A DNA stretch of 20,000 nt from Chrysochromulina tobinii (taxonomy: Eukaryota), in the NCBI GenBank assembly GCA_001275005.1, contig JWZX01003320.1, forward strand, positions 54,764 to 74,763, given 5' to 3'. Under the pieces are notes generated by a model that was given only the letters and a program-made list of their open reading frames with translations, was not told the origin of the DNA and searched no databases. A program made the translations under genes and the position numbers. Positions 413 through 17,148 of this stretch are shown here, one piece after another (position 1 is the stretch's first letter; every line of letters starts with the position of its first letter).

Positions 413-3400
413 ATGAGCATGTTCTCGCTGAGCATGCTCTCGAATCGCGGCCGTCCGAGCTCTTCGGACGCCGCCGAGATCGCAGGCTTGCCGTTCGCAG
501 CGGCCCTCAACGTCAGCCCCGGCGTGCCGTCCTCGTCGAAGCAACGTGCGCGAGCGTCCAGCCCTCCTAAGCCGCCGCCCGTCGCAGTAGCCAGCCCACC
601 GCGGCCGTCGACGCCGGACCAGCCGAGCCCGGCGGAGGCCTTCGCGAAGAAGTGGGAGGTGGAGCAGACCAAGAAGCAGATGCTTCTCGACGAGCTCGAG
701 CTGGTGCGCGCGCAAGTCTCCGAGTTGCTCGAAGACCAGCGGCGCAGCGAGCATCTGAATGCGACGCCGTCCGAGCACATCGTGCTGTCCGCTCACCACG
801 CCGGCGAGGCGCTCGCGCGCAGCCTCGCATGGTGCTGCGAATGGATGAGCGCCGTCCTCCGCGGATGCGTGGCCGGTGCCGCCGGCAGCCGCAGCCGGGC
901 GGCCCGCCCTCTCCATGCGCTGCCTCGCGATGACGAGGAGGACTCGGTGGCGGGGCGGGCGAGCTCGCTGCTGGGCGAGGAGGGCGCGAACGACACGCAC
1001 CTCGCCCGCAAGATGCGTCGGAGCGCGCCGGCGCGGGGCCTGGTGACGAAACCCGAGATTGCGTCCAAGGGCGGCGTGACGAAACCCGAGAGCGCATCCA
1101 AGGGCGGTGTGACGAAACCGAGCCCGAAGGGCGATCCGAAGCATGCGAGAGTTCCCGAGGATAACCCCGAGCTCGTGGCGGCGATGGGGCGTTGGTGCGC
1201 AGGCCACGTGTCCAAGCAGGTGCGTGCGATCTCGCTGCGATCTCGCTGCGATCTCGACACGATTGCAAAACCTCGACACGCCTCGACTCGCCTCTGCATG
1301 CCTCGAGTTACCTCGACTTGCCTCGAATGGCCTCGAATGGCCTCGAGTTGCCTCGCAGGCGTGGGATTTGAGCATGCCACTGATTGCATGCTGATTGCAT
1401 GCTGATTGCATGCGGATTGCATGCTGATTGCATGCTGATTGCATGCTGATTGCATGTCGCAGGCGTGGGATCTGAGCATGCTCGTCCTCATCATCTACTC
1501 TTGCGTCGTGATTCCCTTCCGGATCGGCATGTCAGTACCGAACCCGACGGGCGTCAGCCAGGTGCGATCTGGCCCGAGATTGCGATCTGGCCCGAGATTG
1601 CACCTCTGATCGCACCTCCTTGCACCTCCTTGCGCCCGATGGTCCTCTCTGTGTGTGTGCCACGTGGCTTGCCATGTGACCCAAGTGACACGCGTGCCCC
1701 TCTGCAGACGATCGAGCGTTGCATCACGCTCCTATGATTGCCTCTGATGACCTCTGATGACCTCTGATTGCCTCTGATGACCGCTGATTGCCTCTGCAGA
1801 CGATCGAGCGGTGCATCACGCTCCTCTTCATCGTCGACCTGTGCCTCAACTTCAACACCGCCTACCTCGACGGATCGCACTTCATCGTCGACCGGTCCCT
1901 GATCGCGCGTAACTACCTCATGGGATGGTTCTGGATCGATCTCGCCTCTTCGATCCCCTTCGAGGACCTTCTACACCTCTTAGTGCTCCTCACCGGCAAC
2001 GAGGAGGCGTTCTCCGGTCAGCCAGATTGCTCTCAGCCTGCTCTGATGACCTCTGATGACCTCTGATGACCTCTTTTGACCTCTGTTGACCTCTGATGAC
2101 CTCTGAGTGCCCTCTGAGTGCCCTCAGAATCCTCTGAGTGGGACCGATGCCCCTTCCTTATTAGGCAACCCGGCGGCCCTCAAACTCCTTCGTGGCCTAC
2201 GCCTTGTGCGACTGCTGCGACTGCTCAAGCTGCTCAAGCTGCAGCAGCACATCGATACACTCGAGGACTATCTCGAGGTTGACCTCGGCTTCTTACAGGT
2301 GCCACTGATTGCCACTGATGGCCACTGATTGCCACTCGAGGACTATCTCGAGGTTGACCTCGGCTTCTTACAGGTGCCACTGATTGCCACTGATTGCCAC
2401 TGATTGCCCCTCGAGGACTATCTCGAGGTTGACCTCGGCTTCTTACAGGTGCCACTGATTGCCACTGATTGCCCCTCGAGGACTATCTCGAGGTTGACCT
2501 CGGCTCCTTACAGGTGCCACTGATTGCCACTGATTGCCACTTGATTGCCACTTGTTTGCACCTCGATGACATCTGAGTGCGCCCGAGTGCATCTAAGTAC
2601 GCCTGAGTGCATCTGAGTGCGCCTGCTAGCACCCCTCGATTGCATGCGCATGCAGATCCTCAAGATCGTCACTGATTGCCACTGATTGCATGCGCGTGCA
2701 GATCCTCAAGATGGTCACTGATTGCCACTGATTGCCACTGATTGCATGCGCGTGCAGATCCTCAAGATGGTCGCTATGATCCTCTACCTGATGCATATCC
2801 TCGGCTGCTTTTGGTTCTTCGTCGCGACCAACTCGGGCTATGAGGGCACGCTCGAGGCCGGTGACACGTGGCTCGCGAGGTACCACTGATTGCAACTGAT
2901 TGCCACTTGAGTGCACTGATTGCCACTCGATGCCGGTGACACGTGGCTCGCGAGGTACGATGGCGGCTCAGGGCTCACCATCCCCCTCGGCATGCAAGTG
3001 CTCACCACGACGCCCGGACTCCCCACAGGTACGATGGCGGCTCAGGGCTCACCGCCCCTCTCGAGACCCAGTACCTCTTCTCCATCTACTGGGCGCTGAT
3101 GACGCTCACCACCGTCGGCTACGGCGACATCACACCCGCCAACGACTCCGAGCGCCTGTAATCACTGATTGCCACTGATTGCCTCATGAGCGCCTGTAAT
3201 CACACCCGCCAACGACTCCGAGCGCCTGTAATCACTGATTGCCACTGATTGCCTCATGAGCGCCTGTAATCACACCCGCCAACGACTCCGAACGCCTGTG
3301 CGCTTCCCGCGCTCTGCCCTCGAGATCGCCTCCTGATCGCATCGAGATCGCATCGAGATCGCATCGTGATTGCATCGAGATCGCATCGAGATCGCATCGT

Positions 3401-5848
3401 GATCGCATCGTGATTGCATCGAGATTGCCTCATGGTGTCCCCCTTGCGCGCTCGGCTCCCTGCTGCTCGGCGCGCTCGGCCTCGGCATGCAAGTGCTCAC
3501 CACGACGCCCCCCCCTCTTCCCCACAGGTACGCGCTCGGCTCCCTGCTGCTCGGCGCGCTCGTCTTCGGCTTCATGCTCTCGTCGATCGGCGGCTTAGTC
3601 AAGGGCCTCGATAAGGAGAATATCCGGCTGCAGCACAAGATGGATGAGGTCAAGGAGTTCACCAGATGGCATAAGATGCCTAGTGACCTCTCCTCGCGCG
3701 TGCGCAAGTAGGAGGATTGCTGATGACCTCTAATGACCACTGATGACCTCTGATGACCTCTGATGACCGCTGATGACCTCTGATTGCCTCCCTCATCAAG
3801 CACGCTTGGCTCGGGCGGGGCCACGAATGACCACAGAGTGCACCTCCGACGACCTCTTGAGTGCTTCCGTTGGCCCCCTCCTCCTCCCCAGGTACTACGA
3901 GTTCTATTACCACTGATGACCACTGATGACCTCTGATGACGTCTGATTACCTCCCTCCTCAGGTACTACGAGTTCTACTACCAGAAGCTCTCCTCGTTGC
4001 CCGAGGAGGTGATCCTAGCGCGCGCGCCCAGCTCGCCCTCGGCATGCAAGTGCTCACCACGACGCCCCCCCACCACCCTCTTCCCCACAGGTGATCCTAG
4101 CCGACATGTCGCCCGAGCTCAAGGCATGCAAGTGCTCACCACGGCGCCCCCTCACCCTCTTCCCCACAGGTGATCCTAGCCGACATGTCGCCCGAGCTCA
4201 AGGCCGACGTCATGGCACACCTGCTCGCGCGCTCGGTCAGCCAGATCCCTTTCTTTTACGTGCCCGTGCTCGGCGCGAGCGAGCCCGCGCCGCCCGACAC
4301 GGCGTTCCAAATGGCCATCTACCCGCTCTTGAAGCCCGTCGTGCGCGAGGCGAAGGAGATCATCATCTCGCGCGGAGATGCACTCTCCGACCTGACCTTC
4401 GTGCACAAGGGCACGGTGCATGCCTACGGCCTCTGGAACGCCGCACGCCAGCTACGGCCACCCCATATTAGGCAACCCGAGTGGGCAGGCGGCCATCCCA
4501 TCTTAGGCAGCGGGTCGGCGCTCAGGACGACGCGGCGTGTCATCGGCCCGCGGACCGCGCGGGTGCTCGCCGACGAGGAGGAGCTCGCGCTCAGGACGGC
4601 GCCCAGCTTCGGCCGGCCGTTGCTGACGCTGGCCGAAACGGGCGCGCTGCTGAGCGAGGGCGCGCTCACGGAGACGCCGACGAAGATGGCGTACATGGCG
4701 GTGCTGCGGACCGAACTGGTGCTGATGGCGCGGTCAGACCTGCTCAAAGTCCTGGACGACTTCCCACACGCGCGTTATGAGATTGGAGCCTTCATCAAGG
4801 CGGAGATGCTCGAGCGCCTCAAGATGACCTACTTCTCCCTCCGCTTCCAGGTGACGAACCCGTGCTGATGGAGCCCTGATTGCGGTGACGAACCTTTGCG
4901 TGGAGCCCTGATTGCGGTGACGAACCTTCGCGCGGAGCCTGGATGAAGCCTTTGGTTGGCCAACGGCCCGATTGCCCCACTCATCACCTCTGATGACGAC
5001 CTCTGATGATGACGATGATGACCTCTGATTGCCCCCCCCCCCCTAAACAGGTGCGCGAGGCGTACGTCATCTGTGACGAGGAGGTCCGCGCGGTCCGCCT
5101 CGCGTACCGCGAGAACAGCTCCAATTACGTCGCCAGCTTCAACCTCCTCCAGATGGGCGCCTTGCGTCTCCAGATGGGATGGCTCAAACGGCAGATCCAG
5201 AAGCTGGCGTCCACGCCCGCGACGGCGCTCGTCCCGTGCATCTATGGAGCGCCGCCGCGGGCGCCGCCTGCTCCTGCGGCGCATCGGCCGCGCACGCCGA
5301 CGAAGCTCACCATCGAAGCTCTGGACCGCCTAGTGGGGAGTGGAATGGGCGTCATGTTGGGCGTCGCTCCCTTTGGTGGCGCCATGTTGGGCATCGCTCC
5401 CTTTGGTGGCGCGCTCCTCCCGCGGATCCACTCGCCACGCACTAGCCAAGCGGACGCGGCCGCTGCGCTGTCTGCAACGGACCGAGGGCGCATCGACGAG
5501 ATGACGAAACTCGCGGGCAGCGGCAGCGGCAGCGGCAGCGCGCGCCAACTGGTCGGGAGCGCGAGGTCGCAATCTGGGAGCGCGAGGTCGCTATCTGGGA
5601 GCGCGAGGTCGTACTCTGCGCGGGCGGCGGTGCGCGATCTCTCCGTGCGAGATCGCAGCCCGGCGCGCCTGCAGAGGGTCGACGAGGAGGAGGCGGCCCT
5701 CGAGCGCAGCGCCGTCCCGGGCGGTGCTGGGGCCGTCGCCGCCTCCTCGGAGGCGCTACACGGCTTGCGACAGGTCGAGGCCAAGCTAGGAGACGACGAG
5801 GCTCGCCTCGCTCTCTTGAACGAGAAGCTCGCGTCCCTGCTCCGGTAG
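413..5848 (+). CDS. voltage-gated K+ channel of the CNBD superfamily (KCNH/HCN/CNG-like), 10 exons, about 1070 aa
   Basis: Exons 413-1219, 1463-1561, 1800-2016, 2165-2298, 2758-2879, 3029-3157, 3528-3707, 3963-4008, 4170-4850, 5051-5848; all introns GT-AG, phases consistent, 3213 nt in total. Product has S1 (AWDLSMLVLIIYSCVVIPFRIG), S2 (FIVDLCLNFNTAY), S3 (YLMGWFWIDLASSIPFE), S4 (LLRGLRLVRLLRLLKLLK), S5 (MHILGCFWF), pore YWALMTLTTVGYGDITP, S6, C-linker (LSSRVRKYYEFYY...ILADMSPELKADV), a CNBD-like domain (LTFVHKGTV) and a C-terminal coiled coil. Confidence 0.93.
1378..1456 (+). repeat. intronic minisatellite (CTGATTGCATG)n
   Basis: About 7 tandem 11-mers between two copies of the exon-2 acceptor/start. 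Confidence 0.9.
2042..2140 (+). repeat. intronic minisatellite (CTCTGATGAC)n grading into (CTCTGAGTGCC)n
   Basis: Tandem 10/11-mers in intron 3; the same 10-mer family recurs at about 1735-1797, 3720-3790, 3911-3950 and 4987-5031. Confidence 0.9.
2260..2550 (+). repeat. 4x tandem copy of the exon-4 3' end plus donor plus (CACTGATTGC)n
   Basis: Unit CTCGAGGACTATCTCGAGGTTGACCTCGGCTTCTTACAG|GTGCCACTGATTGCC starts at 2260, 2335, 2410 and 2475 (periods 75, 75, 65). Confidence 0.95.
3129..3299 (+). repeat. 3x copy of the exon-6 3' end and donor (70-bp period)
   Basis: ATCACACCCGCCAACGACTCCGA(G/A)CGCCTGT at 3129, 3199 and 3269. Confidence 0.92.
3335..3428 (+). repeat. intronic minisatellite (GATCGCATCGA)n
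   Basis: About 8 degenerate 11-mers in intron 6. Confidence 0.85.
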
Positions 5849-6319
5849 CGCGCCGTCGTGGGCGCACCTGCCCCTTTTGCTCGCCGCAGGGCGTCGGAAC
5901 ACGTGGCAACACTGCCGGTCCGATCGTGCAACACTGCCAGTGTTGCCAGTGTTGCACGACGTCCGATCGGATCTGGCAACACTGCCGGTCCGATCGTGCT
6001 TTCGGGAGGGTGGCCCGCCCGCCCGCCCCTTTTCAGAACGCCACCTCTACCGTCCGTGCTGTGACACCTCTGCCATGTGGGTTCGGGATCTGCAGGATCG
6101 ATTGTGTGTTATAGGGTTAGGGCTTAGGGACCCGCGCACGTGATCGTGTAAGACCTGCTCACGTGATCAGCTGATGATATGTGCAATTCCAACTCGTTTC
6201 TCAGGACGGGAGGCAGGTGCGGCCGAGCTCAGAGCTTCCCAGATCCCAGGACGGAGCGCTACGTAAGCAGCAGTAAGGGACGTCGAGATACTAAGGCGGT
6301 CTCCGCTCTAGCTCGTACG
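5751..6319 (+). repeat. copy 1 of a local segmental duplication (channel C-terminus plus 3' flank)
   Basis: Aligns by eye with 7105-7712 from AGGCGCTACACGGCTTG to CTAGCTCGTACG, with small indels. Confidence 0.93.
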
Positions 6320-6601
6320 ACCCAAATGTACTTTACGTGAACCTACCGCGCTCCAGCCTCCACGGAGACCGCACGCAGCACCCAGCACGCACGCGCAGCA
6401 CGTTCGCACAGAGCACGCACACACTGCACGCACACGCTCGCGGCACGCGCGCATCGTCCATTGATTCGGTATCATCTTACAACCGTTGGGGCGTTGCGCG
6501 TTGGCATGCGTTATCCCTTCTGCCGTTCTTTGTGTGTCCATCTTTGTGTGTCCATCTTTGTGTGTCCATCCTCGTGCACCTCAAATGCATACGTTTCTGG
6601 C

Positions 6602-6799: not shown

Positions 6800-7104
6800 G
6801 GGGCTGAGCGGCAAGATGGGCGGACGCGGCAATAGTTACGCTCGCCACAAGAACGAAGACGCGCGCATGAGCTTGCTTTTTGCCGCGAGAGCGAGCGCAA
6901 AAAACACCCAATCTATTTGAGGCAACTCCTGGCACATTCTTTCAGGTTGGTCACAGCAAAAACCCAAACGCAAACATTCGAAGATGCCGAAAGAGATGGA
7001 GCTCGTTCGACTCCGGCCGACGACTCTACACTCGAAAGAACCAACCTGTTTTATACATGTCGACGATGAAAAGGCTCCGTCACGTTCGACGTTGCCTCTC
7101 TGCA

Positions 7105-7712
7105 AGGCGCTACACGGCTTGCGACAGGTCGAGGCCAAGCTAGGAGACGAGGAGGCTCGCCTCGCTCTCTTGAACGAGAAGCTCGCGTCCCTGCTCGACC
7201 GGTATTACTCCGGTAGCGCGCCGTCGTGGGCGCACCAGCCCCTTTTGCTCACCGCAGGGCGTCGGACCTGGCAACACTGCCTAAACACTGCCGGTCCGAT
7301 CGTGCAACGCTGCCAGTGTTGCAGTGTTGCACGACGTCCGAGCGGATCTGGCAACACTGCTGGGTGCTGGTCCGATCGTGCGCCGTGCTTTCGGGAGGGT
7401 GGCCCGCCCGCCCGCCCCTTTTCAGAACGCCACCTCTACCGTCCGTGCTGTGACACTTCTGCCATGTGGGTTCGGGATCTGCAGGATCGATTGTGTGTTA
7501 TAGGGTTAGGGCTTAGGGACCCGCGCACGTGATCGTGTAAGACCCGCTCACGTGATCAGCTAATGATACATGTACATGTATGTGCAATTCCAACTCGTTT
7601 CTCAGGACGGGAGGCAGGTGCGGCCGAGCTCAGAGCTTCCCAGATCCCAGGACGGAGCGCGCTGCGTAAGCAGTAAGGGACGACATAGGCGGTCTCCGCT
7701 CTAGCTCGTACG
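7105..7712 (+). repeat. copy 2 of the segmental duplication (fragment of the channel 3' end)
   Basis: Re-encodes ALHGLRQVEAKLGDEEARLALLNEKLASLL; an insertion near 7197-7212 shifts the original TAG out of frame. Confidence 0.93.
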
Positions 7713-8206
7713 GGGTATTCGGTTGCGCTGGTTTAGGTACTTGTGAGGTCAAGGGTGTGAGGTACTTGTGTGTTTCGACTAATTAGCTTGCTTGCTTGCC
7801 GCGCGCGCCTTCATTTCGCCGACCGCCTTCGAGCAGGCGCGGGGAGGCGCTCTGGGAGCGGGTGAAGGCAGGGTCGGGTTCGCTGGGGGCGGCCTCTTCT
7901 GAGTCGGCCGCGGGGAGCGGTCGGCTCCGGGCCTGCGGCTGTTGAGTCGGCCGCGGTTTCGGTCGTCGCGCTGACGTGCGGGTTGTGTGTTGTTGGTGGG
8001 TTTGGATGGTTGTGAGGTTCGTCTGTGTGGTCCGTGTGCCTTTGTGCGCCCGCGTGCCCCGTGTGCCCGTGTGTGTGTCCCGGCTCCCCCCGTTGTCTTT
8101 TTACCGGTACCGGTGCAGTTCCGGTCCGGTTTTGAAACCAATGCTCGCACGGCCTCCCATTACGCACAAGAATGGGGGATCACTCCTTGGGGGCGTCAAA
8201 CACGGC

Positions 8207-11200
8207 ATGGTCTTGCCCACGTTCTTGGCGTTGATGAGCGTGCCCGACCCACTGATGAGCGTGGCTCCACCGCCCCCGTTCATCATCGAGCCCATGCTGC
8301 CGCCGCGCGCAAAGCCCCCCAAGCTGGCCCCCACATCCCACGAGTGGGCCGTCCAGGCGGGCGGTGGATCGAGTGAGGCCGCAGGCCGCGCAATTGCGAC
8401 CGATGGCGCAGGAGGGGCACTCGTGACCGGTCACTTCACGACTGCAGGTTTATTCGGCTCCAAGTCGCTCCTAAGCCGCGGCGGGGAAGACGCTTTCGTG
8501 ATGCACGTGACGGCGTCAGGGGACATCGACTGGGCCGTCCAGGCAGGTGGCACGGGTATCAATGACGAAGCGCGCAGCTCGGGCATCGCGCACGATGGCG
8601 CGGGGGGCGCTTTCGTGACGGGAGTTTTCAGTGGCACGGCATCGTTCGGCGATACGTCACTCACAAGCCGCGGCTCTTTCGACGCTTTCGTGCTCCACGT
8701 GACGGCGTCGGGGCTCATCGACTGGGCCGTCCAGGCGGGAGGCGCGTCCTACGACCAAGGCTTCGGCATCGCGCACGATGGCACGAACGGTGGTGCTTTC
8801 GTGACGGGCACCTTCGCTGGCGAAGCGCACTTCGGCTCGTACGCCGTGACAAGCCGCGGCGTGTACGCCGTATTTGTGATGCACGTGACGGCGTCGGGCG
8901 TCATCGACTGGGTCGTCCAGGCGGGCGGCAAGGGCACTGATAATGTAGGCCGCGGCATCGCACACGACGGCTCAGGGGGTGCTCTTGTGACGGGTACATT
9001 CGATGGCAGCGCTTCACAACCATGCTTCTCCTCGACTTCATCAGCATGCCATGCATGGTTCGGCTCGACCACGCTCACAACCCATGGCGATCTCGACACC
9101 TTTGTGATGCACGTGACGGCGTCGGGGGCCATCGACTGGGCCGTCACGGCGGGTACCTCGGCCCTTGATTGGGAGTGCATTTTCTGCGAAGTTTATGTCC
9201 TTGGCGTAGGCATCGCGCACGATGGCGCGGGGGGTGCTCTCGTGACGGGCGCATTCAAGGGTGAGGCATTCTTCGGTTCGAAATCGCTTAAAAGCCGCGG
9301 CATATACGACGACGTTTTCGTGATGCACGTGACGGCGTCGGGGGCCGTCGACTGGGCCGTCCAGGCGGGCGGCGCGTCCTACGACCAAGGCAACGGCATC
9401 GCGCACGATGGCGCGAACGGTGGTGCTTTCGTGACGGGGTGCTTCGCTGGCGAAGCACACTTCGGCTCGTACGCCGTGACAAGCCGCGGCGTGCACTCCG
9501 TATTTGTGATGCACGTGACGGCGTCGGGCGTCATCGACTGGGTCGTCCAGGCGGGCGGCATGGGCACTGATAACTTCGGTCGCGGCATCGCACACGATGG
9601 CTCGGGGGGTGCTCTCGTGACGGGTACCTTCGATGGCAGCGCTTCACAACCATGCTTCTCCTCGACTTCATCAGCATGCCAAGCATGGTTCGGCTCGACC
9701 ACGCTCGCAACCCATGGCGATCTCGACACCTTTGTGATGCACGTGACGGCGTCGGGGGTCATCGACTGGGCCGTCACGGCGGGTACCTCGACCCTTGATT
9801 GGGAGTGCATTCTCTGCGAAGTTTATGTCCTTGGCGTAGGCATCGCGCACGATGGCGCGGGGGGTGCTCTCGTGACGGGCGCATTCAAGGGCGAGGCATT
9901 CTTCGGTTCGAAATCACTCAAAAGCCGCGGCGGCATATACGACGACGTCTTCGTGATGCACGTGACGGCGTCGGGGGCCATCGACTGGGCCGTCCAGGCG
10001 GGCGGCGCGTCCTACGACCAAGGCAACGGCATCGCGCACGACGGCGCGGGCGGTGCTTTCGTGACGGGTGATTTCATGGGCGAAGCATCGTTCGGCTCGA
10101 TGTCGCTCGTAAGCCTCGGCGGTTCCGACGCTTTCGTGATGCACGTGACATCCTCGGGGGCCATCGATTGGGCCGTCCAGCTGGGTGGTGCGGCCGTCGC
10201 ACCTCCCTTCGACGTAGCATATGGCATCGCGTACGATGACACGCTCGAAGCAGGTGCTCTCGTGACGGGCGCTTTCAGGGGCGAGGCATCGTTCGGCTCG
10301 AACTCACTTGCAAACCGTGGCGCTGCTGCTTCTTGCTTTGTTGCGTCTCTAGAGCCGCCGCCCCCAGAGGAGCCTCCACTGGCTACGACATGCAACGGTG
10401 GATTCGTCTCGAGTCGAGTCGAGTCGCTCGCTTTGGGTCGAGTGGTTTGCAATGCTGAGCCGGGGTCTCGATCTTGGACCCCCGGGGGTGGCCAGGAGGC
10501 ATGTGAGGCGAGGGGCTGCTGCTGGGTGCCAGTGCAGATGGGCGATCCACCGGGGACCCCGGGGTGCTTCTACCTGGTCGCACCGTCGCCCCCACCGACA
10601 CGGCCACAAGAAGAGGTGCCCTCTGATGTGGTGTCCTCCAATTGGGCCGTCGAGGTGGAAGGCACCGCTTCCTCTTCAGGCAACGGCATCGCGCACGACG
10701 GCGCGGGGGGCGCTTTCGTGACGGGAGTTTTCAGTGGCACGGCATCGTTTGGCGATACGTCACTCACAAGCCGCGGCTCTTTCGACGTTTTCGTGCTCCA
10801 CGTGACGGCGTCGGGGCTCATCGACTGGGCCGTCCAGGCGGGAGGCGCGTCCTACGACTACGACCAAGGCTACGGCATCGCACACGATGGCGCGAACGGT
10901 GGTGCTTTCGTGACGGGTACCTTCGCTGGCGAAGCGCACTTCGGCTCGTACGCCGTGACAAGCCGCGGCGTGTACGCCCGTATTTGTGATGCACGTGACG
11001 GCGTCGGGCGTCATCGACTGGGTCGTCCAAGCGGGCGGCATGGGCACTGATAATGTAGGCCGCGGCATCGCACACGACGGCTCGGGGGGTGCTCTCGTGA
11101 CGGGTACCTTCGATGGCAACGGTGACGAAGCATGGTTCGGCTCGATACCGCTCACATGCCGCGGCCGCTCGAACGACGCTTTCGTGATGCACGTGACGGC

Positions 11201-13254
11201 GTCGGGGGTCATCGACTGGGTCGTCCAGGCGGGCGCCGTGGCCCCGGGTCCAGCATACAGTTCCACTTATGTCGGAGGCCAAGGCCTCGCGCACGATGGC
11301 GCGGGGGGTGCTCTCGTGACGGGCGTGTTCAAGGGCGAAGCATTCTTCGGCTCGACGTATGAATGGAACGGAACACACTCTAAACCAGTTGCTGGATCAA
11401 GACTCAAGAGCCACAGCCAGTACGACTCCGATATGTTCGTCATGCACGTGACGGCGTTGGGGGCCGTCGATTGGGTCGTCCAGGCGGGCGGGTGGGGGTC
11501 AACCCATGGTTCCAACATCGCGCATGATGGCGTCGGCGGTGCTTTCGTGACGGGCGACTTCATGGGCACCGCATCGTTCGGCTCGACGTCGATAGTGAAC
11601 CTCGGCGGCTCCAACACGTTCGTAATGCACGTGACGGCGTCGGGCATCATTGACTGGGCCGTCCGGGCGGGCAGCTCGGATGCGGGGGATCAGGCTTTCG
11701 GATACGAGGGCTCAGGCCGTGGCATCGCATACGATGGCACGGGAGGTGCTTTCGTGACGGGTCATTTTAGGGGCGAGGCATTGTTCGGCTCGACGTCGTT
11801 TGTGAGTCGCGACAGTGACGATGCTTCCTCGTACGCGATGCACGTGACGGCGTCGGGCGTCATCGACTGGGCCTTGCAGCTGGGCGGCGCGGCAGATGAC
11901 ATTGGCCTCAGCATTGCGAGCGACGGCGCGGGGGGTGTTCTTGTGACGGGCCATTTCACAGGCGAAGGAACGTTCGGCTCGAAGACACTTTCAAACCGTG
12001 GGGGGCTCACGGCCTGCTTTGTGGTTTCTCTCGTGCCGACGCTACGTCCACCGGTGCCTGCTCGTCGATTGCCACCTCCCGCGCTGGCTGTCCAGGAAGT
12101 CAGCTCTGGCGTTAGCATCCTACTGGTTGGCGCCGCGCTCGCCTTCACGGCCGCGGTCCTCTTCGCACTCATGCTCTGGTGAGCCCCGCAGCGTCCTTGA
12201 AGCAGAATGACCACGCTTCCTTGGCTGCACTGACCAATTGTGTTTGTCTGTTGGGCGTGCGCACAGGAACGCGCGCCGGCGCAACGCGCAGCTCGCGAGG
12301 GAGAAGGAGCGGCTCACGTACGAGCGCACGTTTGCCCTCCATGCGCTTCACTTCCAGCGCCCTCCTCTCCCCTTCGACGCACAATACAGTGATCACGTCT
12401 CCCACTACTCGAGCCCAGATCACATAGACCACCCGGGACCGATGGCACCGGCCGCCTTCGCTCCGGCCGCCTCCGCTCCGGCCGCCTCCGCTCCGGCCGC
12501 TCGGGCTGCAGGGGCGCCGGCTGGGGATGAGGCGTTCGAGGTCGAGATGTTGCCGATCGGCGAGCCATGCGACACCGCAGGCCGCGTCAGCAGCCCTTGG
12601 CGTCTGATCTTCCCTTCCCGAGTCAAAGCGTCGAGAGTCGAGGGGGGCTTTCTGGACAGTGCAGCCCTCTTGGCCGCTGCGGGGGGCGCTGTGCCGCCCT
12701 CCATCCAAAGCTTGCCGGCCGTTGTCACCGTAGCAGGGCCGCCAGTGCCTTCGTGCGCCGCGGCATCACCCTCGCGGGCTGTAGCGGCATCACCCTCGCG
12801 GGCCGCGGCACTCTCAACTATGGACCGCCTGGATCACATCATAGCGCAGCCTGGCAATCGGCACGGGTCTCGGCATGGCTCTATCGGCGGCGGAAGCAGC
12901 TACGGCACGGAAAGTGAGTGTTCTAGGTACGCAGCTGCGATGGCGATGGCCAGCACAGCACAATCGCTGCCGCAGACACCGCCGCAGTCGCCGCCTCAGA
13001 CGCCGCTGCAGACGCCGCAGTCGCTCGCCCGGGCGGATGCCCTCGAGCGGACGCTGCGATTGTGCGGCTTATTGCCCGAGCCTAGTGCGGCGGAGGAAGC
13101 TTCGCTCCCTGAGGCGCTGGAGGGTCCGGCCTCTCCGAATGGCGACGACGGAGCGGCCTCCCCATGGCCTCCCTATGCCAGCCTGCCACGTGGCTTGACG
13201 GAGCGCGCGCGCCTCGCGGGCCTCGCGGGCCACTCGTTAGGCGCGGGCACCTGA
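8207..13254 (+). CDS. large single-pass membrane protein: 10 + 7 SBBP-like beta-propeller repeats, trefoil-like domain, TM helix, low-complexity cytoplasmic tail (about 1650 aa; contains a +1 frameshift)
   Basis: Joins ORFs 7976-11050, 10986-12182 and 12238-13254. Likely start ATG 8207 (GGCATGG, short hydrophobic MVLPTFLALMS; ATG 8141 is an alternative). Repeats of about 60-85 aa: WAVQAGG..GIAHDGAGGAxVTG.F.G.A.FG...DAFVMHVTASG.ID. CEARGCCW...PGCFY at about 10448-10573. Extra C at 10977-10979 versus the paralogous repeat at 8861-8880. TM ILLVGAALAFTAAVLFALML. The GTGAG..CACAG intron 12179-12266 (88 nt, CTGAC branch-like motif near 12230) restores W-NARRRNAQLAREKER in frame. Confidence 0.85.
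8696..9958 (+). repeat. intragenic tandem duplication of three propeller blades (630/633-bp period)
   Basis: Near-identical blocks start at 8696 and 9326, with a partial third at 9959; antisense shadow ORFs 8749-9180 and 9379-9810 are offset by exactly 630. Confidence 0.93.
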
Positions 13255-13469: not shown

Positions 13470-16437
13470 TTAATCTAGTTCTAGATCGGTGTCCCCTGGA
13501 GCCTGAACCATTCCGATGCCATTCTCTGAGTCATCTTCGTAGCAGAAGACTTGGCCTGCCTGGGCCCGTCCATGTTTGCCCGTGGCAGGTCGCGGGAGCA
13601 TATAGGCCACGAGCGAACGTGCCTTACGTCGTGCGGAAGAGGTCTCTGGCGAGGTGCCCTTGACACCCTCGATCAGCGTTAAGTGGACACTATCTCCGTT
13701 GTCGTCGTCGAGGTTGCAAGCGTCGACACCGGCTACACCGCGCGGCCCCGCGAGTGTTGCCTGGGGCTTCCCGGCATCTCGAGGCGGTCCCGCGGATGCC
13801 TCCATGAGCGGCGCCTCCCAACTGTAAGTCCTCTTGAGGATGCGTAAAGGGTACCAAGGGTCGATCACGGCGCCGACAGCGAGCAGCGCCCCGATCACGG
13901 CGCCGACAGCGAGCAGTGCCCGCGGCAGCGCCAACCTTCCGGGCAGTCGTGGAGGAGGAGTAGGAGGAGGCGTAGGAGGAGGCTCCGACAGCCGCGCGGC
14001 TGGCGCCCGCAGCACATGCTGCGGTGATTCCGGCGAGGGATATGCTGAGGGGGGCGGCGCCGACGGCGGCATCTGCCACGGGATCTCCGGTGTTGGGAGA
14101 GGTGGAGGTGGGGAGGGGTCGGGCAGCGGGGGGTGGGAGGGCGGCAACGGCTTCGGCTGTGACGGCAAGGAAGGCTCATCTGCCTTTACATCTGCCTGGC
14201 GGAAGGCCTTATGGGCGGCCCACACGGGCAGTGGCATATCAACGAGCCTCGCGAGAGCCTTCCAACGATCTGAACTACTCGGCTGCTCATCGGCGAGGAG
14301 GTTGTCGAGCAGCAGGTCTATTCACAGAAAGAGGCTCGAACGCGCAAGACAGAGAGGTGAGCGAGGACCAATAAGCGAGGACGCGCTGGAGGTGACACTG
14401 GCGGGGCACGTGCTCGCGCGGCCAGGCCAAGGCCAGGCCATGGCACAGATTCGCTGCAGGGTCATGGGCAGCTCGAGAACGGGTTCGAGACGCCTGCCGC
14501 AGGTTACGCGAGGGCGGCACGGTGCACATGGTTAGAGCCATCTCGGTCACATAGGACCACGCCGCCCCGAGGCCGTATTGCGACGCTGCCCAGCCCACGC
14601 TCGCAACGCTTGGCGACTGCACCGCCCGCCTCTCGAGCTGCTCGAGGCTCGCGCCGCCTGTGTCGATCGGATAGATCTGCGACAAGCTGCGCTCCGTCAT
14701 CCAATAAAACGGGGCGGCATGCACGCCGTGATGCTCTTGTGCGCGCTGCCGGTACCACTCGACGCTGTTCTGCACAGTGAGCACCACCCGGGCGTCCTCG
14801 TGCGCCGCATACAGGAACGGCAAGAGCTGCGCGATGGGCACGTCGGCGACCGCGTCGAGGTCCTTGAGCGCGCCACAGTAGTCAAAGGTGGCAAGCTCAG
14901 AAGGTTTGAGGGCCCAAATCGCCCTTCGGAAGCTCGTCCATGCGTGCTCTCGCCGGGTGCACTCAGCGATGCCCATGCTGTCCGGGCACAGGAACTCGTC
15001 CCAGTGGCCCACGGCCAGACCGAGCTGCTGTACCGCCCACGCATAGGTACCCGTGCCCGTCGCGCCCTGGCCAGCCAGCAGGACGAGCGGACGGCGGCGG
15101 CCGGCACATGAGGAGGCACCGGGCGTGGCCCCTGCCGCCAGGGGGGCAAGGTAGCGCAGCCAGGTGGCACCGGCTGCAAGCATAGTCGGGAGAGGCGGGT
15201 GCACCTTTTGGCCTCGGTCGGAGCGGTCGTGCGCCTGCCAAAACTCATTGTAGCTGAGCCAGAAGGAGACGCAATCGCCACTGGCATGCACATTTCTCGT
15301 GATGCACTCAGGCGGCGCTCCGCGGAAGGGGCGCGTGTCTGCCCACCTAGGCAGAGGCACGTCCGCCAGTTGCGCGAAGCGGCGCCAGCGCTCCGCATCC
15401 ATCTGACGGCGAACGACGTCTGCGTCGGTGCGGTGGTCCGAGAAGACATTGGTGATGATGAGCCGATCGGGCGGCACAAGGCACACGACTAAGGCGAGCT
15501 CTGCAAAGTAACTCCACGAGGCCGCCTTGATACCCATAACCTGCACGTTATGGCCGACGCTGCCTCTGCCGGCATACGTATCACTGATCGACGCGCCGCT
15601 GATCCAGAAGAAAGGTGCCATGTCCGTGCCGCCCTTCCACTGTACCCGTCGAGGGTACCACTCCTCACTTTTTCGAACAGTGAGCACCACCCGGGCGTCC
15701 TCGTGCGCCGCATACAGGAACGGCAAGAGCTGCGGGATGGGCACGTCGGCGATCGCGTCGAGGTCCTTGAGCGCGCCACAGTAGTCAAAGGTGGCAAGCT
15801 CAGACGGTTTGAGGGCCCAAATCGCCCTTCGGAAGCTCGTCCATGCGTGCTCGCGCCGGGTGCACTCAGCGATGCCCATGCTGTCCGGGCACAGGAACTC
15901 GTCCCAGTGGCCTGTAGCGAGCCCCAACTCCCGCGCAGCCCAGGCATACGTCGACGTTCCAGTCTTGCCATCACCCGCCATGATCAGCAGCGGGCGCGTA
16001 CGGCCGGGGCATGTCGACTTTGGTGGCGTGAGCTGATCGAGCAGCGTCGCGCAGGGCAGAGACGTGTTTGGCAGCCGAGGCGGCAGCGGGGGCAGTCCTG
16101 GTGCTGGTGGTGGCGACGACGGCGGGGGCAGTGATGGAAGGGGAAACGGTGACAGCGACGGCAGCAGCGACGGCTGTGCAATAGGAGATGCAGTGGATGC
16201 GGACGGCAAAGGAGATGAGGATGGAGAGGACGCAGGAGGGAAATGGAATGGCGGCGGTAATGTTGGTAGAGATCCGGTACTTGCTGACGGTTGACTGACG
16301 CTGCGTACCACCACCTCATAATAAAGGAGTGCTGATGCAAATCCCATGCTTACCGGCATCAGAAAGATGCAGAGCAGCAACGTGAGAGCTCGAATCAGGG
16401 TTCCTGGGTATGCTACGGTGGATGGACCGTGGCCCAT
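13470..16437 (-). CDS. membrane-anchored protein with two tandem P-loop sulfotransferase-like domains (Sulfotransfer_4-type), 2 exons, about 925 aa
   Basis: Exons 16437-14508 and 14317-13470, intron 14318-14507 (GTAACC..AATAG). Splicing yields VPPSHLLLDNLL..RWKALARLVDMPLPVWA, matching domain 1 VPPDRLIITNVF..RWRRFAQLADVPLPRWA. Motifs MAGDGKTGTSTYAWAARELG, DAIADVP, DARVVLTVRKSEEW. N-terminal hydrophobic anchor, Pro/Ser stems, second hydrophobic segment near the C-terminus. Start codon uncertain. Confidence 0.8.
14774..15912. repeat. near-identical 236-bp patch shared by the two sulfotransferase-like domains (14774-15009 and 15677-15912)
   Basis: 903-bp offset; 4 mismatches counted by eye. Confidence 0.92.
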
Positions 16438-17148
16438 GGAACAGTGCGATGGCCCCACGGCTCTGTGATTGGCTGGGTTGATCCGGATGGTTCGTGGAGA
16501 TCCGACGGTTGAAAGAACATGCCGCGGCGGACCCAAATCTGCCCAAATGCATGTTCTGCAAATGCATGCCCTGTCGAAGCTTGTTTACACGTAGATGGAA
16601 GCTGAAGTTTTGATACTTGAAGGCGGTGACCTCGAGACCTCGAGACCCTGCGAACGTCCGCGCGCACGCCTTTCGCAGCAGCATCCTCACGCCACGGGCC
16701 CCGCGCGCGCGCTATGGCTAACACAGGCGCTGGCGGGGGCGTGGGCGATGGCGTGGGCACCGCCACCCTCGGCTCGCGCACGGGTCGTACGAGCGCGCGA
16801 CGCCATGTGGCGCGCACGCCCCGCCGAGGACGCGCATGTCTCTCGTCGGACGTCGCGACGTCGACACCGTGGACCCGCGTGCGGTCGTGGTTTTGTTCAT
16901 ATCGTCTCAAGCCCGATCCCGAATTTAATCCTAATGATCGGGAGATATCATTGGAGCAGTCGGAGTCGTGGCCAGACCCCCTTCGCCCCCACAGTGAGCA
17001 ACGCCCCGACAATGAACATCTGACAAAAGATTGGGTCGGACGCGCTGCCTCCTTGTGGGAAGCTGGGAACAACTCACGGACCCAGGGAGGCGACGATGCC
17101 AAATCTGGACCTTGTTATTATGGACCTTGCTGCGCGTCGTGGAGCGAA

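What the first reader, a model, noticed from the sequence alone, without database searches (positions are those of the whole stretch)
2989..4169. Portable 3'-splice-site cassette reused in three introns (Introner-like)
Seen: four copies of GGCATGCAAGTGCTCACCACG(A/G)CGCCC-(C-rich)-CCCCACAG, always in sense orientation, always ending at an AG followed by GT, and always preceded by a copy of the downstream exon start. It has a branch-like GCTCAC, a pyrimidine tract and an internal GCAAGT (GC-type donor consensus). No inverted termini seen. Inference: a short mobile or template-switched module, possibly derived from an intron or lariat 3' end, that supplies acceptors.
Basis: partly seen in the sequence, partly recalled or inferred. 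Interest (0 to 1): 0.75.

Follow-up and report, generated by a model that had tools for sequence, protein, structure and literature searches.

The report
Half-introns that seed new introns
In this alga-like eukaryote, short halves of a ~75-base intron recur in many unrelated genes, each next to a 13-47-base duplicate of the neighbouring exon that supplies the missing splice site, likely copied from other introns by template switching - a route to new introns that published intron-transposon screens would likely filter out.

Summary
Confirmed and extended. The four copies are real (chance 0.01) and end three introns of an ion-channel gene; RNA contigs splice at copies 1 and 2. The motif is not local: 186 distinct sites in 122 metagenome loci plus the window. 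Two mirror forms exist. Form A carries branch site and acceptor and takes its donor from a duplicated exon start (74 of 112 sites; control 0.6). Form B carries donor and branch site and takes its acceptor from a duplicated exon end (18 of 23). Removing predicted A introns restores the frame in 40 of 47. Two whole introns are absent, cleanly, in another strain; window copy 4 is absent in an orthologue. Copies in unrelated genes share parent-derived filler and tail, often joined at short homologies. Best reading: intron pieces are copied by homology-guided template switching that duplicates the target, and only half-introns that erase the duplicate on splicing survive. DNA versus RNA template and the enzyme are not shown. 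It works like an Introner but fails the end-to-end-similarity definition. New variant of a known kind; interest 0.7.

The parts
419..5848 (+). Host gene: cyclic-nucleotide-binding-domain cation (K+-type) channel, 1068 aa, 9 introns
   Evidence: Open frame after removing 9 introns; TTVGYGD pore motif; exons hit Ion_trans and cNMP_binding below Pfam cut-off, relatives P0001/P0002 clearly; six joints seen in RNA contigs
2880..2954 (+). 75-nt 5' unit of intron 2880-3028: another GT head plus copy of the upstream exon end (2926-2954) ending in AG (form-B-like, different module)
   Evidence: RNA donor at 2880; copy located; boundaries
2955..2979 (+). Duplicate of downstream exon start (GT...), 25 nt
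2980..2989 (+). Filler shared with a copy in an unrelated gene (L003)
2990..3028 (+). Cassette copy 1: 19-nt core with predicted branch A, C-rich tail, acceptor AG
   Evidence: acceptor used in 4 of 4 RNA runs
3447..3486 (+). Duplicate of downstream exon start, lacking its first GT
3485..3527 (+). Cassette copy 2, acceptor of intron 3158-3527
   Evidence: joint in 1 of 4 runs among rows shown; L055 has a different, 5'-truncated extra unit here
4009..4041 (+). Donor GT, 11-nt duplicate of exon start and 22-nt filler
4042..4090 (+). Cassette copy 3; its AG is internal to the 161-nt intron (or the end of the first of two abutting introns)
4091..4125 (+). Perfect duplicate of downstream exon start, overlapping the core start (GGC microhomology)
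4124..4169 (+). Cassette copy 4, predicted acceptor of intron 4009-4169; the 82-nt unit holding one cassette plus the duplicate is absent in orthologue L055
3892..3962 (+). 71-nt unit of the same anatomy with another module (exon-start copy + repeats + AG), absent in L055

Best explanation
These cassettes are 3' halves of a ~75-nt intron family that sit beside a duplicate of the target exon and were likely copied from other introns by homology-guided template switching, with selection likely keeping only the halves that splice the duplicate out exactly. Shown: a 19-nt core plus tail (form A) or 30-nt GT head plus core (form B) recurs in unrelated genes; the remainder of each 60-91-nt intron is a 13-47-nt duplicate of the adjacent exon, often with filler; some units are present in one strain and absent in another. 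Inferred: DNA synthesis at the target (repair or re-replication) jumps at a few matching bases to another intron - itself, a neighbour or a distant gene - copies part of it, and returns upstream, duplicating the target. Deduced: with so long a duplicate, a complete intron would leave an extra exon piece in the mRNA; only an insert lacking its own donor beside a duplicate that starts with GT (A), or lacking its own acceptor beside a duplicate that ends in AG (B), restores the mRNA. Each new intron would become a further template. At existing introns the same events add 65-105-nt units, as in 7 of 9 introns of this gene. No enzyme was identified; a DNA or unspliced-RNA template is preferred but not shown.
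For: 186 distinct sites. A: duplicate at exon start 74 of 112, control mean 0.6, max 2; target begins GT in 96 of 112; implied introns 60-91 nt; duplicates 13-47 nt, 15 of 70 overlap the core by 1-6 nt. Frame restored in 40 of 47; shifted controls 5 of 41 and 1 of 41; 36 of 47 lengths not 3n. B: head follows AG in 20 of 23, exon-end duplicate in 18 of 23 (control 1.8, max 5), frame restored 10 of 14. Clean empty alleles: L016 site (81 nt) absent in L002/L008, L067 site (80 nt) absent in L072; the L016 insert equals a cassette 476 nt away. Filler and tail co-vary between loci: 8 of 12 pairs, permutation mean 0.36, 0 of 2000 reach 8; four pairs checked have unrelated flanks. In L073 the shared 16 nt are its own exon duplicate, in L083 the last 6 are foreign filler. 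Near-identical tails: 16% of 93 same-locus pairs, 1.6% of 6684 others. 5'-truncated cores joined at TGCT matches. Related pairs share longer exon starts, 3.7 vs 2.2 nt, hinting that the template includes the donor's exon.
Against: The 5' end of form A is not fully ragged: 39 of 92 unascertained copies start at GCATGC, which sits in a 12-bp palindrome when preceded by CTT; a defined end suits a dedicated element or enzyme. 38 of 112 A sites lack a clear duplicate at the exon start, and 24 of 37 fillers have no exact source among the sampled sites. The exon-prefix signal rests on 16 post-hoc, non-independent pairs. Empty alleles could be precise losses between the repeats or assembly collapse; no outgroup polarises them. 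Splicing outside the window rests on frame inference with a codon model from one gene. No whole genome was held, so no search for a reverse transcriptase or transposase partner was possible.
Confidence: 0.55

Rival explanations
1. Retro-copying: excised, debranched intron RNA is reverse-transcribed at staggered nicks by a borrowed non-LTR reverse transcriptase. Form A is primed at the RNA 3' end and 5'-truncated; form B is primed internally and runs to the RNA 5' end. The same selection removes full-length copies.
For: Exact end at a splice site, variable other end with microhomology and filler, variable-length duplication match target-primed reverse transcription (established knowledge); long-range copying; filler comes from inside the parent intron.
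Against: Units that span an exon-intron junction (2299-2513, probably the 82-nt unit at 4042-4123) need a template holding exon and intron together; tenfold local enrichment; longer shared exon starts among related pairs; no poly-A tail seen.
Confidence: 0.25
2. A dedicated non-autonomous transposon family (HUH/Replitron-like or unknown) with one exact and one fuzzy end and variable duplications, mobilised by an unseen transposase that recognises the palindromic core.
For: Modal 5' end at GCATGC and near-invariant GCATGC; Replitron-1 inserts with a parent-derived fuzzy end and variable duplications, and a Replitron protein was reported at one locus in C. tobinii (PMC10288648, passages).
Against: Two opposite polarities and core-only forms; no terminal direct or inverted repeats in the copies; tails differ widely (mean similarity 0.43); other unrelated modules show the same anatomy in this gene.
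Confidence: 0.13
3. Local tandem duplication or conversion within this gene only, or assembly artefact.
For: Copy 4 can be written as an 82-nt tandem duplication with GGC microhomology; several introns hold plain junction-spanning tandem units.
Against: 186 sites in other loci; foreign filler shared with unrelated genes; same structure in independent assemblies L071 and L121; RNA joints at cassette acceptors. It can explain copy 4, not the family.
Confidence: 0.04

Closest known systems
Introners with a splice site co-opted from the target-site duplication, incl. [quoted passage not shown]
   Same: Intron-making repeat family, no inverted termini, about 70 nt, carries one splice site and co-opts the other from the duplicate; haptophyte examples.
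   Different: Reported duplicates are 4 bp (3-9 bp generally) and similarity must reach within 10 intronic bases of both intron ends; here the duplicate is 13-47 nt, variable, forms a third to a half of the intron, junctions are ragged with parent-derived filler, and both polarities share one core. Family sequences were not in the files I saw, so shared sequence with those families is untested.
Unclassified Emiliania huxleyi introner families (PMC12130899 Dataset rows; PMC9860276 Table 6 rows)
   Same: Short haptophyte families scored 'carry 5' co-opt 3'', 'co-opt 5' carry 3'' (one noted with 10-bp terminal direct repeats) and 'co-opt both' (37 nt); mechanism unknown.
   Different: 5-45 copies in the 2025 table, short or unscored duplicates, no template-switch model in what I read; C. 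tobinii scored 0 families there. They may be the same phenomenon seen in part.
Intron gain by staggered double-strand-break repair in Daphnia pulex (PMC4202315; passages)
   Same: New introns with a direct repeat of the adjacent exon end; later internal additions lengthen them.
   Different: Repeats 4-12 bp, AT-rich inserts of mostly unknown source, no self-propagating family; here the source is other introns and is traceable.
Replitron-1 of Chlamydomonas (PMC10288648; passages)
   Same: One exact end, one fuzzy end derived from the parent's flank, variable duplications.
   Different: 0.9-3.6 kb, terminal direct repeats, HUH transposase, not described there as intron-forming.
Hypoxylon sister (stw)introns and fungal introner-like elements (PMC8469720; passages)
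   Same: Intron sequences that propagate, cropped derivatives, repair-linked model, nested or abutting introns.
   Different: Long inverted repeats, seamless insertion with no duplication.

Membership tests
Introner (operational definition, PMC9860276) | Family of sequence-similar introns in non-paralogous genes | tested here: met
   186 sites; four related pairs have unrelated flanks
Introner (operational definition, PMC9860276) | Similarity reaches to within 10 intronic bases of both intron ends | tested here: not met
   A: 16-47 nt of target-derived sequence before the core; B: 18-39 nt of target-derived or filler sequence after it; one near-complete copy (L044, 5357) among 186; rule read
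Introner (operational definition, PMC9860276) | Insertion creates a spliced intron and restores the mRNA | tested here: met
   RNA joints at window copies 1 and 2; frame restored 40 of 47 A, 10 of 14 B; RNA not obtained for loci outside the window
Introner (operational definition, PMC9860276) | Recent gain: presence/absence at orthologous sites | tested here: met
   Two clean whole-intron cases and five extra units against 20 sites shared between contig series; direction not polarised
MITE-type DNA transposon Introner | Terminal inverted repeats | tested here: not met
   No inverted pair at cassette ends among the 25 longest of 167 listed; folds of copy 1 and of a head+core show only weak internal hairpins
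MITE-type DNA transposon Introner | Short fixed-length duplication (2-9 bp) | tested here: not met
   13-47 nt, median 27.5
Non-LTR retro-copy (SINE-like) | Exact 3' end, variable 5' truncation, variable duplication | tested here: inconclusive
   Met by form A; form B has the opposite polarity
Non-LTR retro-copy (SINE-like) | Partner reverse transcriptase; poly-A or simple-repeat tail | not testable with these tools
   No genome held; copies end in ACAG without poly-A
Replitron | Short direct terminal repeats | tested here: not met
   None evident in the aligned ends
Replitron | HUH Rep transposase partner | not testable with these tools
   No genome held; none among 8 window ORFs or exons scanned
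DSB-repair intron gain (Daphnia type) | [quoted passage not shown] | tested here: met
   longer than the 4-12 bp reported

The most novel reading that the evidence does not exclude
A transposon-free, self-amplifying intron factory: ordinary introns act as templates for a host repair or replication pathway that makes 13-47-nt duplications, so that half-introns seed chimeric new introns with traceable parent-daughter lineages, at hundreds to over a thousand sites and still active between strains, and the same process builds haptophyte introns out of 65-105-nt units. Published Introner screens would be blind to it.
Probability: 0.4. Interest if true: 0.85.

Novelty: new variant of a known kind. 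Interest (0 to 1): 0.7.

Why it matters
Where new introns come from is a long-standing question; the current answer is mostly transposons, with about 72% of Introner families unclassified (PMC12130899) and the source of repair-made introns mostly unknown (PMC4202315). Here donor, target, junction and empty allele are all readable, in a cultured organism with RNA data, so DNA versus RNA template and enzyme dependence become testable. If general, intron gain is undercounted by screens that require end-to-end similarity, and gene prediction in these algae is confounded by intronic exon copies.

Tried and rejected
No whole genome was held and the contigs behind the loci could not be searched, so copy number is a rough estimate. 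RNA support was obtained for the window only; splicing of form B with this core remains inferred. Rfam: only a sub-threshold sR3 match on the 10-nt repeats, rejected as chance. GC-donor role of GCAAGT rejected. Insertion of spliced cDNA to explain the exon-junction copy at 2926-2979 rejected as unnecessary: two ~75-nt units give it. Excess mismatches at the first exon bases, which would show donor-exon capture, were not seen. Folding showed no stable structure. Earlier scan notes by sequence and by the first word set were empty. Paper searches found no description of this motif or of half-intron families with long duplicates; 'gctcaccac' was absent from the two supplement files searched (one was cut when stored; files 13-14 of PMC12130899 and the GitHub sequence sets were not seen; subscription papers are not covered).

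Full report
Observation. The 19-nt core occurs four times, all on +, at 2990, 3485, 4042 and 4124; none of 200 shuffles reaches four. The host is a 1068-aa cyclic-nucleotide-domain channel gene with nine introns. RNA contigs join 2880-3028 in 4 of 4 runs and 3158-3527 in 1 of 4 among the 15 joints shown (15 more hidden), so copies 1 and 2 supply used acceptors. Intron 4009-4169 holds copies 3 and 4 and is inferred from the frame.

Spread. Allowing two mismatches gives 276 hits and 186 distinct sites. Neighbouring sites share the strand in 93 of 103 cases. Recapture among 73 loci of one contig series (52 distinct) suggests about 100 loci with the exact 20-mer, and other variants are far commoner in the flanks (80 in 216 kb, biased upward by clustering): several hundred to over a thousand copies is a rough guess.

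A strict pattern classed 114 sites as A, 20 as B, 52 as neither; a relaxed one gave 117 A, of which 112 had enough flank. In 74 of 112 the exon start is duplicated just upstream (84 with any placement; control mean 0.6). The exon begins GT in 96 of 112, usually GTRCG, a ready-made donor. Duplicate start to core is 16-47 nt and the implied intron 60-91 nt. Duplicates are 13-47 nt, 27 of 70 perfect (four tandem cases dropped). Of 52 GT..AG candidates with clean flanks, 47 had exon-like upstream sequence; removal put codon-model frames in register in 40, against 5 and 1 of 41 for shifted cuts. The predicted branch A lies 22-39 nt from the AG and is changed in 1 of 186 sites.

Heads follow AG in 20 of 23; 18 of 23 show the duplicate (control 1.8); 10 of 14 testable sites restore the frame, and three of the four failures abut another cassette intron. 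L038 carries several in one long gene. One near-complete head-core-tail copy exists among 186. Core-only copies between direct repeats and tandem arrays also occur.

Recent activity. Eleven site-by-locus comparisons spanned both flanks without clustering; they reduce to seven indels. Two are whole A introns with clean empty alleles (81 and 80 nt). The orthologue L055 lacks the 82-nt unit with one of window copies 3/4 and the 71-nt unit at 3892-3962, and has its own extra, 5'-truncated cassette joined at a TGCTC match before the 3527 acceptor. Twenty sites are shared between contig series. Loss between repeats or assembly collapse cannot be excluded for single cases.

Source tracing. Sites in different loci that share 8 or more bases of score upstream of the core also share tails in 8 of 12 pairs (permutation mean 0.36). 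Window copy 1 pairs with L003: same filler, similar tail, unrelated genes, and both exons carry a similar 9-base stretch at the switch point. L073 holds as its own exon duplicate the bases that are foreign filler in L083; L076 does likewise for L078 and L058. The insert private to L016 equals a cassette 476 nt away. Near-identical tails are ten times commoner within loci, though most similar pairs are distant. Among 92 copies not selected by my pattern, 39 begin at GCATGC, 20 are shorter, 21 extend into the head, 12 match nothing upstream. Against: 24 of 37 fillers have no exact source in the sample, and short ones can match by chance.

Mechanism. The anatomy is duplicate-insert-duplicate with short homologies and a parent-derived ragged end: template switching is the simplest account (inferred). 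Long duplicates explain why halves dominate: a complete intron would leave the extra exon copy in the mRNA (deduced). Seven of nine introns of this gene carry copies of adjacent exon ends with other modules or none, in units of 65-104 nt, some without their own AG or GT, so the process is general and self-copying is its simplest case; copy 4 may be such a case. RNA-templated insertion remains a serious rival, and the fixed GCATGC start is unexplained.

Comparison. Introners that co-opt one splice site from a short duplicate are known, including a TIR-less 70-nt Chrysochromulina family. The published pipeline requires similarity near both intron ends, which these introns fail; C. tobinii scored zero families in the 2025 survey, and E. 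huxleyi has small unclassified families of all three polarities. Daphnia repair-made introns have 4-12-bp repeats and unknown sources. It works like an Introner, is not one by definition, and I found no description in nine searches.

Verdict. Real, genome-wide, recent; new variant of a known kind; interest 0.7.

Noticed in passing
window 1220-5050 (introns): Introns are full of 10-11-nt tandem repeats built on branch-like CTGAT words, and 7 of 9 carry copies of adjacent exon ends.
   Followed up: partly
window ~4462-4478: 15 extra in-frame bases relative to L055 that resemble the acceptor and exon start of intron 2017-2164; covered by unbroken RNA contigs, so apparently exonic. Possibly a template-switch insert that became coding.
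   Followed up: no
window ~5750-6340 and ~7100-7700: The 3' end of the channel gene and its downstream region are duplicated 1.39 kb further on (185-nt block 98% identical).
   Followed up: no
window 7946-12182: Long beta-propeller (SBBP) repeat gene with a trefoil domain, split over two frames near 10960-11050.
   Followed up: no
window 14290-16584 (-): Sulfotransferase-domain ORF with a 300-nt internal duplication 903 nt apart; relatives only among unnamed proteins.
   Followed up: partly
L038:2972-3053: Form-B insert whose exon-end copy lacks the final AG; an AG nine bases earlier would keep the frame and add three codons. Untested.
   Followed up: no
L031, L076, L026, L069, L094: Chains of abutting B and A units (AG directly followed by GT) and tandem cassette arrays; candidates for zero-length exons or recursive splicing.
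   Followed up: no
core start, form B copies (e.g. L038:2438-2449 region, L001): With the preceding CTT the core start forms a 12-bp palindrome, and TGCATG also recurs in the 11-nt intron repeats; role unknown.
   Followed up: partly
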